Shown one piece after another: positions 21,187 through 45,285 of a DNA stretch of 64,000 nt. The notes beneath the pieces were generated by a model, which was not told where the DNA came from, ran no database searches, and was given only the letters and a program-made list of their open reading frames with translations. Each line of letters begins with the position of its first letter. The first letter of the stretch is position 1. The translations under genes and the position numbers were made by a program. The stretch comes from Akkermansiaceae bacterium (GTDB taxonomy: Bacteria; Verrucomicrobiota; Verrucomicrobiia; Verrucomicrobiales; Akkermansiaceae), in contig JANMSI010000135.1 of NCBI GenBank assembly GCA_031389115.1, positions 18,758 to 82,757 on the forward strand. The letters are read 5' to 3'.

Positions 21187-21202
21187 GTGACAATTGTGTG
21201 AC
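21187..21202 (-). promoter_or_regulatory. Pho-box-like direct repeat upstream of the PstS-OmpA gene
   Basis: Minus strand GTCAC-ACAATT-GTCAC, 11-bp period, 48 nt before the ATG. Confidence 0.7.
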
Positions 21203-21263
21203 GGCGTTGCTCCGATCCCGAGATCGGGCTTGAACGCGGTCGGCGGCGGGGTTGCATTGGCGC

Positions 21264-22340
21264 ATGGGTCCGCAGTCTCCACGATCGTTGCACGATCTCG
21301 GTTTTTCCGAGATGGTTGAGGTGCTGGCGGCGGACGGCGTGATTCTGCATCACGTGAAACCGCTCTGGCGCGCGATTCATTCCGATGGCGTGCTCGACCT
21401 AACGCATTGCGATTTCCTGCCGCCGCTCAAACGCTGGGTCGCCCGATCCGTGGGGGAGGGGAAGGCGTTTTTCCTCGATGCGCCGGAGGTGGTGGACGAG
21501 ACGCAGAGCTCCGACGGGCTGACACGGAAATTTCTCCTGCGGCTGCGCGACGGGCAGACCATCGAGACCGTGCTGATGGGCTACGCCGGCCGGCAGACGG
21601 TTTGCGTGAGCACGCAGGCGGGCTGCGCGATGGGCTGTGTGTTCTGCGCGACGGGGCAAATGGGATTCGTCCGCCATCTGCGGACCGGCGAAATCGTGGC
21701 GCAAGTCCTGCATGCCCGGCGGATTTTAAAGGAGATCCATCCGACCAAGCGGCTTCGCAATATGGTGCTCATGGGAATGGGCGAGCCGCTGCACAATTAC
21801 GACGCCGTCATGCGGGCGCTTGAGTCGATTTCCAACCGCAGCGGGATCGGCATCGGACCATCGAAAATCGCCGTTAGCACGGTGGGCGTGGTCCCAAGCA
21901 TCCTCCGGCTCGCTGCAGAAGGGCGGGAATACCGCTTGGCGGTTAGTTTGCACGGCTCGACCGAGGAGGAGCGCGCGGCGCTGGTCCCGGCGAGCAAACG
22001 TTGGTCGCTGGCGATGCTGATGGAGGCCTGCCGCGAATACGCGCGGATCACGGGCAGGCGGATCTTCTTCGAGTGGACGCTGATCGCCGGGAAAAACGAT
22101 TCCGCCGCGACGGCAATGCGGCTGGCGGAGCTGCTGCGGGGAATCGACGCGCATGTGAATCTGATCCCGCTCAACCCGACCGGCGGGTTCGCGGGTTGCC
22201 AGAGCGACGCCGGGCACGAGTTTCAAAAAATCCTGACCGCCGCCGGATTTCCCTGCACCTTCCGCCAGCGCCGCGGCATCGACGTCGCCGCAGGCTGCGG
22301 GATGTTAAACGCGGAGAGACGGATCAAAGCCCATTTGTGA
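21264..22340 (+). CDS. rlmN: Radical SAM 23S rRNA/tRNA m2A methyltransferase
   Basis: CVSTQAGCAMGCVFCATG, MGMGEPLHN, VNLIPLNP and AAGCG motifs; MGMGEPL favours RlmN over Cfr. Confidence 0.88.
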   Translation: MGPQSPRSLHDLGFSEMVEVLAADGVILHHVKPLWRAIHSDGVLDLTHCDFLPPLKRWVARSVGEGKAFFLDAPEVVDETQSSDGLTRKFLLRLRDGQTIETVLMGYAGRQTVCVSTQAGCAMGCVFCATGQMGFVRHLRTGEIVAQVLHARRILKEIHPTKRLRNMVLMGMGEPLHNYDAVMRALESISNRSGIGIGPSKIAVSTVGVVPSILRLAAEGREYRLAVSLHGSTEEERAALVPASKRWSLAMLMEACREYARITGRRIFFEWTLIAGKNDSAATAMRLAELLRGIDAHVNLIPLNPTGGFAGCQSDAGHEFQKILTAAGFPCTFRQRRGIDVAAGCGMLNAERRIKAHL

Positions 22341-22353
22341 CGGGAACGTCACA
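22336..22353. promoter_or_regulatory. GT(G/C)AC 11-bp-period site upstream of tpsB
   Basis: TGTGAC-GGGAAC-GTCACA; the first half-site overlaps the rlmN stop codon. Confidence 0.55.
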
Positions 22354-22421
22354 TTCGCGCCCTTGAGAGCGGGGGCTGTGGGGGAGAAAGCTCCGCCCCG
22401 CTTGAAATGCGGGCTTGCAGC

Positions 22422-43192: not shown

Positions 43193-44407
43193 ATGAAAAC
43201 GAAATCCATGCTCGTCATGAGCGCCCTCTTCATCTCGGCCACGTTCTCGAACGCCGCTGACACCCAGACCGTTTACAACATCACCGGTGCCACCGCGTTC
43301 CGTGCTGCCGCGAACCTGGCCATCATCGACCTCCTCGGTGGGACCGGCAATGTCCCGTACGCCTACACTGGTGCCAGCCTGGCCGCTTCCAACCGGACGA
43401 TTTTCAAGAAGACCGTCGTCACGAACCTTCCAGCCACTGGCGACACCGCCACCACGATCGTTCGCGCCTCGTGGTCCGGTTCCACCCAGGGCATCCTGGA
43501 TCTGGCCGACCAAACGGTCACCGTGCAGTTCCTCAAGACCACCGTCACCACGACCACCGCCGGCACCGTGAATCCGGGAGCCGCCGGTGATTTCGAAACC
43601 ACCAACGCCCGTTTCGCGTTCTCGGACGTGGACAAACTTCTCTCGGCCCGCCCCGATTCGGCGATCCAAGGCGAAGGCGTCGGCGTCGTGCCGTTCATGT
43701 TTGTCGCCGGTGAAAGCGCTCCCGCCACAGTCTCCAACATGACCGACCAAATCCACAACACCCTCTGGTCCACCGGTTCGGTTCCTGCTTCGTTCATCAC
43801 CGGAAATCCTGCGAACGCCGGTTTCACCATTTTGGCAACGGGCCGTAACAACGGTTCCGGCACCCGTGCCGCCGTGCTTTCCGAAACCCAATACGGTTCA
43901 TTCACCAGCGTGGTGCAGTTCAACCAAACCAACGACGGCACCGGCGTTGGCGGAGCTCTCACCGGCACCCCGACACTGTACGCACCGGGCGGCAATGGCG
44001 GCGGAACATCGAACTCCTTCGTGAAGGACCTCCTCGTCCGCACGTCCAGCCCGACCCACCTCAGCGGCAATTACGCGTTCGTCAGCTATCTGACCATCTC
44101 GGATGCCGTTACGGCCACGGGTTATGATCAAGTCTCCGGCAATATCACCCTTCCCACCGAAGGTGCGAAGCCGATGACCTACAACGGCGTCCGCTACTCG
44201 GAACAGAACGTCAACAACGGGTCCTACACGCTCTGGAGCTATCAGCAGCTCTATCGCGCTGCGGATTCGACTCCTGCCGAAGACACGTTCGCCACGGACT
44301 TGAAGAACTCGATCGACAACGTGCTGGTTCCTACGATCGGCCTTAAGGTCTCGGGCTTGCAAGTCGAGCGCTCCGGTGGTGACGGCGGCCCTGTCGCCCC
44401 GCTGTAA
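43193..44407 (+). CDS. Secreted PstS/DING-like periplasmic-binding-fold protein (start moved to 43193)
   Basis: Signal peptide ending SNA; ITGATAF near the N-terminus, GRNNGSGTR (compare PstS R-S-D-G-S-G-T) and GSYTLWSY. Confidence 0.65.
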   Translation: MKTKSMLVMSALFISATFSNAADTQTVYNITGATAFRAAANLAIIDLLGGTGNVPYAYTGASLAASNRTIFKKTVVTNLPATGDTATTIVRASWSGSTQGILDLADQTVTVQFLKTTVTTTTAGTVNPGAAGDFETTNARFAFSDVDKLLSARPDSAIQGEGVGVVPFMFVAGESAPATVSNMTDQIHNTLWSTGSVPASFITGNPANAGFTILATGRNNGSGTRAAVLSETQYGSFTSVVQFNQTNDGTGVGGALTGTPTLYAPGGNGGGTSNSFVKDLLVRTSSPTHLSGNYAFVSYLTISDAVTATGYDQVSGNITLPTEGAKPMTYNGVRYSEQNVNNGSYTLWSYQQLYRAADSTPAEDTFATDLKNSIDNVLVPTIGLKVSGLQVERSGGDGGPVAPL

Positions 44408-44485
44408 TCTCCGCCTGTCGGACATCCATGGCAGGTGCTGGCGGTCGCGCCGGCACCTGCCTTTTTCTCTCTAAATAATTTCCGT

Positions 44486-45205
44486 ATGAAGCGAATCCAT
44501 GTCTGTCTGGCCGCTACCGGGTTACTGGCTGTCGGAAGCGTCCTCATCCTGCGGCCCTCCGCCATGGAGCGGGTGAACCCGCCCCAGATTGAAAAAACCA
44601 GACCTCTGTCACGAGCCGCGCACCCGTCAGCCGGAGAAACAGCCGCCCGTTCCACCCACCGCGTCGAAATGGCGGTAAATGGAACAACTCCCGGAACGAG
44701 CGTCGCGCACAGCCGGTCAAGGGCGCAATTCACCCGGACCGCAATTCAGTCCGGACCTGCCCGGACATCACTCTCGCCGATCGCGCGGCAACCGATCCTC
44801 CCCGGCGTGCTTCAGGCCAGTAAAGCACCCCGTGGAATCGTTCACGATGCTCCCCTTGCCAGCGCCCAGATTGCTCGGACTCGCATTCCGGGTGGTTCGC
44901 CGCAGGACGCGCTTGGACTCACGTCGAATTTACCGCCAGCCCTGCCGCCTGCGGCGCTCATCGAACTCGACGATCCTGCCGTCGCGCAAGCGGACGCACA
45001 AAGGCGACTCACCGCGATCGCCTCGGATTTCACCGACGCCCTGAACCAATCAGGCCTCGATCCGGCAGATCCCGGCTACCGCCAGCTCTGGGACCGGGAA
45101 CAAGCCAGTGCTGACGCCCGGTTTCGGTCCATGTACGGTGGCCAAGCTTGGATGAATCATCACATCCAAAGCCACCACGCCCAGTCCCGTTCTCCAATGC
45201 AGTGA
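44486..45205 (+). CDS. Hypothetical membrane-anchored or exported protein (start moved to 44486)
   Basis: N-terminal hydrophobic helix, Pro/Ala-rich linker, helical C-terminus (ADARFRSMYGGQAW); lies in-line in the cluster. Confidence 0.6.
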   Translation: MKRIHVCLAATGLLAVGSVLILRPSAMERVNPPQIEKTRPLSRAAHPSAGETAARSTHRVEMAVNGTTPGTSVAHSRSRAQFTRTAIQSGPARTSLSPIARQPILPGVLQASKAPRGIVHDAPLASAQIARTRIPGGSPQDALGLTSNLPPALPPAALIELDDPAVAQADAQRRLTAIASDFTDALNQSGLDPADPGYRQLWDREQASADARFRSMYGGQAWMNHHIQSHHAQSRSPMQ

Positions 45206-45219
45206 CGTCCCGACCATCG

Positions 45220-45285
45220 TGTGACGATCCTGTGACATTACTGTGACAATCAACAATTTGTCCGAGGTCACAATTGCCTTACTTT
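45220..45285 (+). promoter_or_regulatory. Triple TGTGAC direct repeat (11-bp period) followed by TTGTCC-N16-TACTTT promoter
   Basis: TGTGAC at 45220, 45231 and 45242; -35-like 45258-45263; -10-like 45280-45285, the same TACTTT as at rpsT. Confidence 0.72.

What the first reader, a model, noticed from the sequence alone, without database searches (positions are those of the whole stretch)
21187..45247. Recurrent GT(G/C)AC-N6-GT(G/C)AC motif (Pho-box-like) at four promoters of the island
Seen: GTCAC-ACAATT-GTCAC (21187-21202, minus), GTGAC-GGGAAC-GTCAC (22337-22352), GTGAC-ACAATC-GTCAC (29889-29904) and a triple GTGAC array at 45221/45232/45243. A weaker copy is at 42198. All are intergenic or at gene ends, with an 11-bp period. 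Established: PhoB/OmpR-family regulators bind 11-bp-period TGTCA-type direct repeats. Inference: a verrucomicrobial Pho box. Caveats: some half-sites overlap TGA stop codons, the 45.2 kb array is in reverse orientation, and no phoBR is in the window.
Basis: partly seen in the sequence, partly recalled or inferred. Interest (0 to 1): 0.72.

Follow-up and report, generated by a model that had tools for sequence, protein, structure and literature searches.

The report
Verrucomicrobial Pho box controlling secretion island
The repeated GTGAC‑N6‑GTCAC motif is real and is very probably this bacterial group's phosphate-starvation switch (the PhoB binding site), which here wires an accessory island of secretion, TonB-transport and phosphate-binding genes into the phosphate response.

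Summary
GTSAC‑N6‑GTSAC occurs 5 times in the window against 0.19 expected, and 5 of the 16 genome-wide copies lie in this 24‑kb stretch (P≈2e‑8).

The Pho-box interpretation is supported by evidence that does not depend on the island:
- The same box is conserved upstream of the phoB orthologue in 24 of 24 genomes of the genus.
- It is conserved upstream of pstS across the order.
- It always sits 10 nt before a −35‑like TTG/TTC element.
- The phoBR pair was identified by synteny (pstSCABB‑phoU‑RR‑HK clusters in two relatives) and by reciprocal best hits.

A PWM trained only on other genomes ranks phoB first in this genome, pstS fourth, and four island sites in the top eleven.

Each island site is footprinted in orthologous promoters:
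- PstS‑like/OmpA promoter: 5 of 5.
- tpsB promoter: 9 of 12 relatives plus 2 MAGs.
- tpsA and 45.2‑kb promoters: some relatives only.

The box is E. coli‑like, matching the E. coli phnC site at 15 of 18 positions. The island mirrors the Pi‑starvation-induced pdt/exbB2‑exbD2‑tonB4 locus of Pseudomonas aeruginosa.

PhoB binding and induction by low phosphate are inferred, not shown. I class it as a new member of a known kind, of moderate interest.

The parts
21187..21202 (-). Pho box 1 (GTCACACAATTGTCAC on the minus strand), 48 nt upstream of the ATG (21139) of the PstS-like x2/OmpA gene. It is followed by 10 nt and TTCCCC (21176-21171).
   Evidence: A box with the same geometry is found in 5 of 5 orthologous promoters (window, L074-L077).
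18587..21139 (-). Gene for a secreted protein with two PstS-type phosphate-binding domains and a C-terminal OmpA peptidoglycan-binding domain.
   Evidence: Pfam PBP_like_2 (2 stretches) + OmpA. NCBIfam TIGR02136 PstS family at 230 bits, above its cut-off. Signal-peptide-like N-terminus.
21264..22340 (+). rlmN-like radical-SAM RNA methyltransferase. Its stop codon lies inside box 2. It is probably not itself Pho-regulated.
   Evidence: TIGR00048 RlmN at 290.1 bits. There is no TT element 10 nt after box 1 in the + direction.
22337..22352 (+). Pho box 2 (GTGACGGGAACGTCAC), followed by 10 nt and the -35-like TTGAGA (22363-22368). This is the promoter of the tpsB-exbB-exbD-tonB-porin operon.
   Evidence: Conserved with box + 10 nt + TTGAGR in 9 of 12 evaluable relatives across three families and in L076/L077. 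Ranked 3rd genome-wide by the independent PWM.
22407..29886 (+). Operon: tpsB (ShlB/POTRA_2, 22407-24023), DUF2341-LamG-ExbB fusion (24050-25948), exbD (25988-26398), small ORF (26413-26676), tonB (26676-27359), Porin_5 porin (27375-29186), 232-aa unknown (29188-29886).
   Evidence: Pfam. The order tonB-porin-232aa-tpsA is conserved in 11 relatives, and tpsB-exbB-exbD-tonB in 12.
29889..29904 (+). Pho box 3 (GTGACACAATCGTCAC), 89 nt upstream of the tpsA ATG. This is an internal, optional box.
   Evidence: Ranked 2nd genome-wide by the independent PWM. Conserved in G018 (L090) and L076 but absent in G023, G014 and G019. The TT element is displaced by 3 nt.
29993..41326 (+). tpsA: 3777-aa two-partner-secretion exoprotein (filamentous-haemagglutinin type).
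   Evidence: Pfam TPS secretion domain (residues 151-350) and DUF3739 (FHA family).
42198..42213 (+). Weak box (GTGACATTATCGTTGC), followed by 10 nt and TTGTCG (42224-42229), upstream of the 42318 gene.
   Evidence: The equivalent position in G020 (directly after tpsA, before the paralogue) has GTGAC-N6-GTAAC + 10 nt + TTACGT.
42318..44407 (+). Two genes: a surface-protein paralogue (42318-43133) and a divergent PstS/DING-like protein (43130-44407). They are followed by a strong terminator-like hairpin at 44430-44461.
   Evidence: Paralogy to the 45329 protein: 48% identity over residues 9-259. Weak TIGR02136 hit, E=2e-4. Terminator scan.
45221..45247 (+). Pho box 4: three GTGAC half-sites at an 11-bp period, then 10 nt, TTGTCC (45258-45263), 16 nt and TACTTT (45280-45285).
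   Evidence: Ranked 7th and 11th by the independent PWM. The G008 orthologue has GTGACaaattcGTCAC + 10 nt + TTGTAG, and G033 has a 1-mismatch box + TTGAAA.
45329..51329 (+). Downstream co-directional genes: 408-aa surface-protein paralogue (45329-46555), exosortase EpsH (46573-47589), two unknowns, and an alpha/beta hydrolase (50301-51329).
   Evidence: Pfam Exosortase_EpsH and Hydrolase_4. Operon membership is inferred only from spacing and strand.

Best explanation
The motif is the Pho box of this verrucomicrobial lineage. It is an 18-bp operator made of two (sometimes three) hexamer half-sites, (T/C)GT(G/C)AC, spaced 11 bp apart with an A/T-rich spacer, and it is bound by the phosphorylated PhoB orthologue (encoded on contig C171 next to a PAS histidine kinase, PhoR). 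At Pho promoters of this order the box ends exactly 10 nt upstream of a weak -35-like TTG/TTC hexamer. This places it at about -61 to -46, where PhoB~P would recruit RNA polymerase when phosphate is scarce. In the window, four to five such promoters place an accessory island under phosphate-starvation control. The island comprises a peptidoglycan-tethered double PstS-like protein, a two-partner secretion system (tpsB, tpsA) co-transcribed with its own ExbB-ExbD-TonB motor and porin, a PstS/DING-like protein, and surface proteins with an exosortase. What is shown: the motif, its statistics, its conservation and fixed geometry at phoB, pstS and island promoters, and PhoB orthology by synteny. 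What is inferred: that PhoB is the binder, that binding activates transcription, and that low phosphate is the signal.
For: (1) The strict box lies upstream of pstS(CABB-phoU), phoBR and CHAD in this genome. (2) Footprints: 24 of 24 same-genus phoB promoters carry ttGTGACyAAATyGTCACa while the flanks diverge. pstS promoters across 8 families carry GTGAC-N6-GTCACA, often with extra copies. (3) Fixed geometry of box + 10 nt + TTG/TTC, then 17-18 nt to a TAnnnT/GTTAKT -10, at phoB, pstS and island promoters. (4) PhoB orthology: G031 and G019 have pstS-C-A-B-B-phoU-RR-HK clusters whose RR/HK are reciprocal best hits of the C171 pair (249 vs 125 bits and 206 vs 128 bits). G031 has boxes before pstS and before the RR. 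(5) A PWM trained only on other genomes ranks phoB 1st, pstS 4th and island sites 2nd, 3rd, 7th and 11th. At score >=16, 13 of 14 hits are not deep in coding sequence (P=4e-7) and 4 of 14 lie in the island (P=1e-6). (6) Same register and orientation as ChIP-seq-defined E. coli PhoB sites: E. coli phnC ATTAACCAAATCGTCACA vs TGTGACCAAATCGTCACA, 15/18 (PMC10294691). (7) Other verrucomicrobial classes have unambiguous 11-bp direct repeats (CTAAC/CTTAC, some triple) at pstS. (8) The analogous P. aeruginosa pdtA-pdtB-exbB2-exbD2-tonB4-porin locus is induced by low Pi through PhoB (PMC7035377).
Against: In the conserved promoters the two half-sites are almost always GTGAC then GTCAC (G in 47/47, C in 46/47). 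That makes them a perfect inverted repeat, which is unusual for head-to-tail PhoB binding. The regulator's best full-length PDB match is RpaA, and its DNA-binding domain is not closest to E. coli PhoB. The TIGR02154 score (221 bits) is below the curated cut-off. The box lies upstream of a -35-like element rather than replacing it as in E. coli. Several other genomic hits (CHAD, the RHS gene, C63, C10, C56) lack the canonical geometry. Site 3 is not conserved in the closest relatives. Gene calls are crude longest-ORF calls on a 93%-complete draft genome.
Confidence: 0.85

Rival explanations
1. The sites are operators of a different, two-fold-symmetric regulator (for example a CRP/FNR-family or other dimeric factor, or another OmpR-family paralogue) that happens to control pst, phoBR and the island. 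They would be read as the palindrome TGTGAC-N6-GTCACA.
For: The arms are a near-perfect 6-bp inverted repeat in 46 of 47 conserved promoter sites. TGTGA/TCACA are the CRP arms (from established knowledge). The genome has at least seven OmpR-type regulators with similar PhoB-model scores. The DNA-binding domain of the C171 regulator is not specifically PhoB-like by PDB ranking.
Against: The spacing is TGTGA-N8-TCACA, not the N6 of CRP. Functional-looking sites also occur as pure direct repeats (three GTGAC at 45221-45247, GTCAC-GTCAC at 21187 and CHAD, GTGAC-GTGAC at C99), which a symmetric dimer could not read equally. The spacer is asymmetric (A-rich, then T/C). Other classes of the phylum have plain direct repeats at pstS. 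The conserved box in front of phoBR itself is the classical autoregulation signature. The sites match E. coli PhoB sites at 15/18 positions.
Confidence: 0.08
2. PhoB binds, but some island boxes are non-functional or repressive (for example site 3 before tpsA and the weak 42198 copy). Only the PstS-like/OmpA and tpsB promoters would then be truly Pho-activated.
For: Site 3 is absent from the three closest relatives that have the same gene order, and its TT element is out of register. 42198 has two core mismatches. In E. coli most PhoB sites are transcriptionally inert (PMC10294691).
Against: Site 3 is the second-best PWM hit in the genome and recurs in G018 and L076. 42198 has exact box + 10 nt + TTGTCG geometry and a counterpart in G020.
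Confidence: 0.3
3. The repeats are not protein operators at all. They would be chance matches, a dispersed repeat element, or RNA hairpins or terminators at gene ends.
For: Genome-wide the pentamer pair at 11-bp spacing is not over-represented (16 vs 13.5). Three sites touch stop codons. The 22337 site can form a 7-bp hairpin (-12.1 kcal/mol, z=-2.2).
Against: Clustering P=2e-8. There is conservation at orthologous promoters in dozens of genomes with diverged flanks. The direct-repeat sites do not fold (z=+0.6 and +0.9). No U-tails follow the sites and the terminator scan does not call them.
Confidence: 0.02

Closest known systems
Proteobacterial Pho box (PhoB operator; E. coli pstS, phoA, phnC, phoB promoters)
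   Same: It is an 18-bp site with two hexamer half-sites at an 11-bp period, the core TGTCAC/CGTCAC, and an A/T-rich spacer. It has the same orientation relative to transcription, is present at pstS and autoregulates phoBR. It matches the E. coli phnC site at 15 of 18 positions, and E. coli amn even has a GTGAC half-site (PMC10294691).
   Different: The upstream half-site is almost invariably GTGAC (central G), so the arms form an inverted repeat. The box ends 10 nt upstream of a -35-like TTG/TTC hexamer instead of replacing the -35 and lying about 10 bp from the -10. Binding has not been demonstrated.
Pseudomonas aeruginosa sigma-VreI / Pdt locus (lapA, pdtA, phdA, pdtB, exbB2, exbD2, tonB4, PA0696 porin, PA0697)
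   Same: A two-partner secretion pair is linked to a dedicated ExbB-ExbD-TonB set, a putative porin and a small unknown protein, with a DING/PstS-type protein nearby. The whole locus is induced by phosphate starvation through PhoB (PMC7035377). The order tpsB-exbB-exbD-tonB-porin-unknown is the same.
   Different: No vreA-vreI-vreR ECF module or Hxc type II secretion genes were seen among the island genes scanned, and the boxes sit directly at the promoters. The PstS-like protein is a tandem fused to OmpA. ExbB carries DUF2341/LamG domains. Exosortase-linked surface proteins are attached. Protein-level homology to the Pseudomonas proteins was not tested here.
Pho boxes of Bacillus PhoP (TTAACA repeats) and cyanobacterial SphR (CTTAACCT repeats)
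   Same: They are tandem direct repeats at a period of about 11 bp in pst promoters. The repeats seen at pstS in other verrucomicrobial classes (CTAAC, CTTAC, TCTAAY, some triple) resemble these. The consensus sequences are cited from general knowledge.
   Different: The order containing this genome has shifted to GTGAC/GTCAC cores. No experimental work exists for any verrucomicrobial lineage.
CRP/FNR-type palindromic operators (TGTGA-N6-TCACA; NtcA GTA-N8-TAC)
   Same: The TGTGA/TCACA arms and the overall two-fold symmetry of most sites.
   Different: The arm spacing is N8, not N6. Direct-repeat and triple arrays occur. The spacer is asymmetric. The regulon content is pst/phoBR.

Membership tests
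Pho box (PhoB/OmpR-family operator) | Two or more half-sites spaced one helical turn (11 bp) apart | tested here: met
   All window sites have an 11-bp period, including a triple array. The same spacing holds in all orthologous sites, and there are triple 11-bp arrays in other classes.
Pho box (PhoB/OmpR-family operator) | Present and conserved in promoters of the high-affinity phosphate transporter (pstS) | tested here: met
   Own pstS has two sites. The strict box occurs upstream of pstS in 16 orthologous promoters, with 1-mismatch versions in others, across 8 families.
Pho box (PhoB/OmpR-family operator) | Autoregulatory site in front of phoB(R) | tested here: met
   24 of 24 same-genus phoB promoters, plus three other families. 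G031 has a box between phoU and the RR.
Pho box (PhoB/OmpR-family operator) | Half-sites are direct (head-to-tail) repeats of a TGTCA-type core | tested here: inconclusive
   The downstream half is (C/T)GTCACA, as in E. coli. The upstream half is GTGAC in 47 of 47 conserved sites, giving inverted arms. The pentamer GTSAC is its own complement except at the centre, so its orientation cannot be read from sequence. Direct versions do occur (45221, 21187, CHAD, C99).
Pho box (PhoB/OmpR-family operator) | Fixed position relative to core promoter elements | tested here: met
   Box + exactly 10 nt + TTG/TTC at phoB (22 of 22 listed), pstS, tpsB (9 of 9), PstS-OmpA (4 of 5) and the 45.2-kb array. However, the position differs from E. 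coli, where the box replaces the -35.
Pho box (PhoB/OmpR-family operator) | Bound by phosphorylated PhoB, with genes induced on phosphate limitation | not testable with these tools
PhoB orthologue (the presumed binder, C171:57777-58460) | OmpR-type RR paired with a PAS-HisKA-HATPase kinase and genetically linked to pst-phoU | tested here: met
   Domains. pstSCABB-phoU-RR-HK clusters in G031 and G019, with reciprocal best hits to C171.
PhoB orthologue (the presumed binder, C171:57777-58460) | Scores above the curated PhoB model cut-off, or is closest to PhoB among solved structures | tested here: not met
   TIGR02154 at 221 bits against a 296 cut-off, although only 2 of 14 control genomes pass it. 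The best full-length PDB hit is RpaA, and the DBD ranks E. coli PhoB about 10th.
CRP/FNR-type operator | TGTGA-N6-TCACA symmetric site, read by a symmetric dimer | tested here: not met
   The spacing is N8. Direct and triple repeats occur, and the spacer is asymmetric.
Pdt-like phosphate-starvation TPS/TonB locus (P. aeruginosa PA0688-PA0697) | tpsA/tpsB with adjacent exbB-exbD-tonB, porin and a DING/PstS-like gene | tested here: met
   Pfam/NCBIfam domain content and order compared with the locus described in PMC7035377.
Pdt-like phosphate-starvation TPS/TonB locus (P. aeruginosa PA0688-PA0697) | Control through the ECF sigma factor VreI and anti-sigma VreR | tested here: not met
   No sigma-70 r2/r4 or anti-sigma domains were found among the island genes scanned from 18.5 to 51.3 kb. 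The boxes lie directly at the promoters.
Pdt-like phosphate-starvation TPS/TonB locus (P. aeruginosa PA0688-PA0697) | Protein-level orthology to PdtA/PdtB/ExbB2/TonB4/PA0696 | not tested

The most novel reading that the evidence does not exclude
The linkage of a Pho box to tpsB-exbB-exbD-tonB-porin-tpsA recurs across Verrucomicrobiales families and in Pseudomonas. The module may therefore be an ancient, dedicated phosphate-starvation machine. In this reading a TonB-energised outer-membrane system works with a giant secreted TpsA and peptidoglycan-tethered or secreted PstS-like proteins to capture phosphate or organophosphate at or beyond the cell surface, rather than acting as an adhesin or toxin system. 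A second novel element would be a PhoB that binds a quasi-palindromic box head-to-head from a position upstream of the -35.
Probability: 0.2. Interest if true: 0.75.

Novelty: new member of a known kind. Interest (0 to 1): 0.5.

Why it matters
It gives a well-supported operator and a first regulon sketch for phosphate control in Verrucomicrobiales. This is an environmentally abundant, poorly studied group for which no Pho box turned up in three full-text searches. The regulon in this genome consists of pst, phoBR and CHAD, and no PhoD was found. Its other main component is a patchily distributed island encoding secretion, TonB and phosphate-binding proteins. The parallel with the uncharacterised exbB2-exbD2-tonB4/pdt locus of Pseudomonas makes the function of that conserved module approachable by comparative genomics. 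The box can also be used directly to predict Pi-responsive genes in metagenome-assembled verrucomicrobial genomes.

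Tried and rejected
- Genome-wide enrichment of the bare GTSAC pair at 11-bp spacing is absent (16 vs 13.5) and only modest in intergenic DNA (7 vs about 2). The signal only becomes clear with the full box, its context and conservation.
- The RNA hairpin/terminator reading is rejected. Only the inverted sites fold, none has a U-tail, and the direct-repeat sites do not fold.
- The CRP-like palindrome reading is rejected on spacing and on the existence of direct and triple arrays.
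- PDB similarity was tried as a test of PhoB identity and was uninformative. RpaA is the best full-length hit, and E. coli PhoB is deposited only as separate domains.
- PhoD/PhoX phosphatase genes were sought as extra regulon tests. PhoD is absent and PhoX is marginal.
- The PstS-like/OmpA gene was sought in 40 relatives and found in none, so its footprint had to come from four MAG loci.
- A PWM built from the window's own sites was set aside as circular and replaced by one trained on other genomes.
- Additional PWM hits (C63, C10, C56, C100, C42, the C99 RHS gene, C109) lack the canonical geometry or have uninformative annotation. They are not claimed as regulon members.

Full report
**Observation**

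The pattern GTSAC‑N6‑GTSAC occurs five times in the window, at 21187, 22337, 29889, 45221 and 45232. The last two overlap to give three GTGAC at an 11‑bp period. The expectation from 100 dinucleotide-preserving shuffles is 0.19. Reading the sequence confirms each site and the weak copy at 42198, GTGACATTATCGTTGC (‑8).

A crude ORF map plus Pfam/NCBIfam searches place every site in an intergenic gap or at a gene end:
- Site 1 is 48 nt upstream of the ATG (21139, minus strand) of a protein with two PstS-type domains and an OmpA domain.
- Site 2 overlaps the stop codon of an rlmN-like gene and precedes tpsB.
- Site 3 follows a 232‑aa gene and precedes a 3777‑aa TpsA exoprotein.
- The weak site overlaps the stop of a Sel1 gene.
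- The triple array precedes a 408‑aa gene followed by an exosortase gene (‑13, 29, 46).

**Is it more than chance?**

In the whole 4.25‑Mb draft genome the bare pentamer pair at 11‑bp spacing is not enriched: 16 found against about 13.5 expected. However, 5 of the 16 lie in this 24‑kb span (P=2.4e‑8), and 11 of 16 lie where no long ORF covers them. The enrichment therefore belongs to a specific set of promoters, not to the genome at large.

**What the other copies flank**

- One strict copy lies upstream of pstS‑pstC‑pstA‑pstB‑pstB‑phoU on contig C157, about 90 nt before the true pstS start. A second, one-mismatch copy lies 100 bp further up.
- Another lies 64 nt upstream of the genome's best PhoB-model hit, an OmpR-type regulator followed by a PAS‑HisKA‑HATPase kinase on C171.
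- Another lies 52 nt upstream of a CHAD (polyphosphate-associated) gene.
- Another lies 187 nt upstream of a 3543‑aa RHS/cadherin protein (‑19, 21‑24, 27, 29, 36, 37).

**Is the regulator PhoB?**

The C171 regulator scores below the strict TIGR02154 cut-off. Its closest full-length solved structure is RpaA, and its DNA-binding domain ranks E. coli PhoB only about tenth. Sequence similarity alone therefore does not settle the question. Synteny does. In G031 (another family of the order) and in G019, the best matches of the C171 regulator and kinase sit at the end of a co-directional pstS‑pstC‑pstA‑pstB‑pstB‑phoU‑RR‑HK cluster. Those regulators hit C171 back as a clear reciprocal best hit, at 249 vs 125 bits and 206 vs 128 bits. 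G031 carries the box both before pstS and between phoU and the regulator.

**Phylogenetic footprints at core Pho genes**

Upstream of the phoB orthologue, all 24 genomes of the genus carry ttGTGAC(C/T)AAAT(C/T)GTCACa about 64 nt from the ATG, while the flanking DNA diverges. Genomes of three other families carry variants. Upstream of pstS the box GTGAC‑N6‑GTCACA(A) is present in 16 orthologous promoters spanning the order, often with additional upstream copies.

In both promoter sets the box is followed by exactly 10 variable nucleotides and then a conserved TTG/TTC. A TAnnnT or GTTAKT element follows 17‑18 nt later. I read these as −35 and −10 elements, which puts the box at roughly −61 to −46.

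**Non-circular scan**

A PWM trained only on phoB and pstS sites of other genomes was run over both strands of this genome. The ranking was phoB 1st, window 29889 2nd, window 22337 3rd, pstS 4th, window 45232 7th, CHAD 8th and window 45221 11th. At score ≥16, 13 of 14 hits are not deep inside coding sequence (P=4e‑7) and 4 of 14 fall in the island (P=1e‑6). The composite signature (strict box + 10 nt + TT[G/C]) occurs six times in the genome: pstS, phoB, window 21187, 22337 and 45232, and one GC-rich hit inside an ORF.

**Footprints of the island sites themselves**

The PstS-like/OmpA gene is absent from all 40 sampled relatives. It is present in four Verrucomicrobiales MAGs (Luteolibacter sp., Akkermansiaceae and two others).
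- All five PstS-like/OmpA promoters have a box (GT[GC]AC‑N6‑GT[CT]AC). Four of the five have TTC exactly 10 nt downstream.
- The tonB‑porin‑232aa(‑tpsA) arrangement is present in 11 relatives.
- Upstream of tpsB, 9 of 12 evaluable relatives from three families have a box with 0‑2 mismatches, followed by 10 nt and TTGAGR or TTC. L076 and L077 have it as well.
- The box before tpsA is variable. It is present in G018 and L076 and absent in G023, G014 and G019, where tpsA simply continues the operon.
- For the 45.2‑kb array, the G008 orthologue has GTGACaaattcGTCAC + 10 nt + TTGTAG and G033 has a one-mismatch box + TTGAAA, while G020 has none.
- In G020 the paralogue that directly follows tpsA has GTGAC‑N6‑GTAAC + 10 nt + TTACGT. 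This is the counterpart of the weak 42198 site, which itself has perfect geometry with TTGTCG 10 nt downstream.

**Direct or inverted repeat?**

In the conserved promoters, position 3 is G in 47 of 47 sites and position 14 is C in 46 of 47, so the arms form an inverted repeat, TGTGAC…GTCACA. Against a truly symmetric reading:
- The spacer is asymmetric (A-rich, then T/C).
- Sites with canonical geometry exist as pure direct repeats (45221‑45247 and 21187).
- At pstS in other verrucomicrobial classes the repeats are plainly direct, some of them triple: CTAAC, CTTAC, TCTAAY. Sister families have intermediates, GTGAC…GTAAC or TTAAC.
- The box aligns in register and orientation with ChIP‑seq-defined E. 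coli PhoB sites. It matches phnC (ATTAACCAAATCGTCACA) at 15 of 18 positions, and amn contains a GTGAC half-site (PMC10294691).

GTSAC is self-complementary except at its centre, so sequence alone cannot fix the orientation of each protomer. I treat the box as a tandem PhoB-type site whose two positions are not equivalent.

**Rivals**

An RNA hairpin or terminator reading fails. Only the inverted sites fold, none has a U-tail, and the direct-repeat sites fold no better than shuffles (‑78). A CRP-like operator fails on spacing (N8, not N6) and on the direct arrays. A different regulator cannot be excluded without binding data, and I give that about 8%.

**The island in context**

Its core order is tpsB, ExbB (with DUF2341/LamG domains), ExbD, TonB, a Porin_5 porin, a small unknown protein and tpsA. 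PstS-like proteins lie on both sides. This mirrors the P. aeruginosa locus lapA(DING)‑pdtA‑phdA‑pdtB‑exbB2‑exbD2‑tonB4‑PA0696(porin)‑PA0697, which is induced by phosphate starvation via PhoB and σVreI (PMC7035377). No ECF sigma module was seen among the island genes scanned, and the boxes sit directly at the promoters, so control here is probably direct. Protein-level orthology to the Pseudomonas genes was not tested. The genome has no PhoD and only a marginal PhoX-like hit, so this island appears to be a major part of its inferred Pho regulon.

**Novelty and limits**

Three full-text searches found no description of a verrucomicrobial Pho box or regulon. The operator is nevertheless a recognisable relative of the classical Pho box, and the island is a relative of a known Pi-starvation locus. 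I therefore class this as a new member of a known kind.

The limits are as follows. Gene calls are longest-ORF approximations. The genome is a 93%-complete draft. The −35 and −10 assignments are inferred from conservation only. Nothing here demonstrates binding or induction.

Noticed in passing
window 44430-44461: A very strong intrinsic-terminator-like hairpin (14-bp stem, 11 GC pairs, T-run) lies just after the PstS/DING-like gene (stop at 44407). It overlaps the predicted GTG start of the ORF at 44435-45205, so that ORF probably starts later or is not a real gene.
   Followed up: no
G000 contig C99:4212 (locus L012): A direct-repeat box (GTGACAGAATCGTGAC) lies 187 nt upstream of a 3543-aa RHS-repeat/cadherin-like protein. 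It ranks 10th by the independent PWM but lacks the box + 10 nt + TT geometry.
   Followed up: partly
G000 contig C157:18848-26252 (locus L014): The pst operon has two tandem pstB genes and unusually long PstC (756 aa) and PstA (536 aa) ORFs. The same layout is seen in G031 and G019.
   Followed up: partly
G000 whole genome: No PhoD-family phosphatase was found and there is only a marginal PhoX-like hit (C102:984-1682, 20.5 bits). Classical secreted phosphatases seem to be missing from a 93%-complete genome.
   Followed up: partly
loci L093-L105 (pstS promoters of other verrucomicrobial classes): The half-site of the presumed Pho box drifts by lineage. It is CTAAC/CTTAC/TCTAAY direct repeats (some triple) in distant classes, GTGAC...GTAAC or TTAAC in sister families, and GTGAC...GTCAC in this order.
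   Followed up: partly
window 21264-22340: An rlmN-like housekeeping gene sits between the PstS-like/OmpA gene and tpsB, and keeps that position in L076, L077, G014 and G004. Its stop codon is embedded in Pho box 2 in the window.
   Followed up: partly
window 21207-21232: A small palindrome (CCGATCccgaGATCGG) lies between box 1 and the rlmN start. Its function is unknown.
   Followed up: no
G000 contig C39:12951 (locus L010): A CHAD-domain gene has a direct-repeat box (GTCACAAAATCGTCAC) 52 nt upstream. The box is shared with a divergent amidohydrolase gene. Conservation in relatives was not checked.
   Followed up: no
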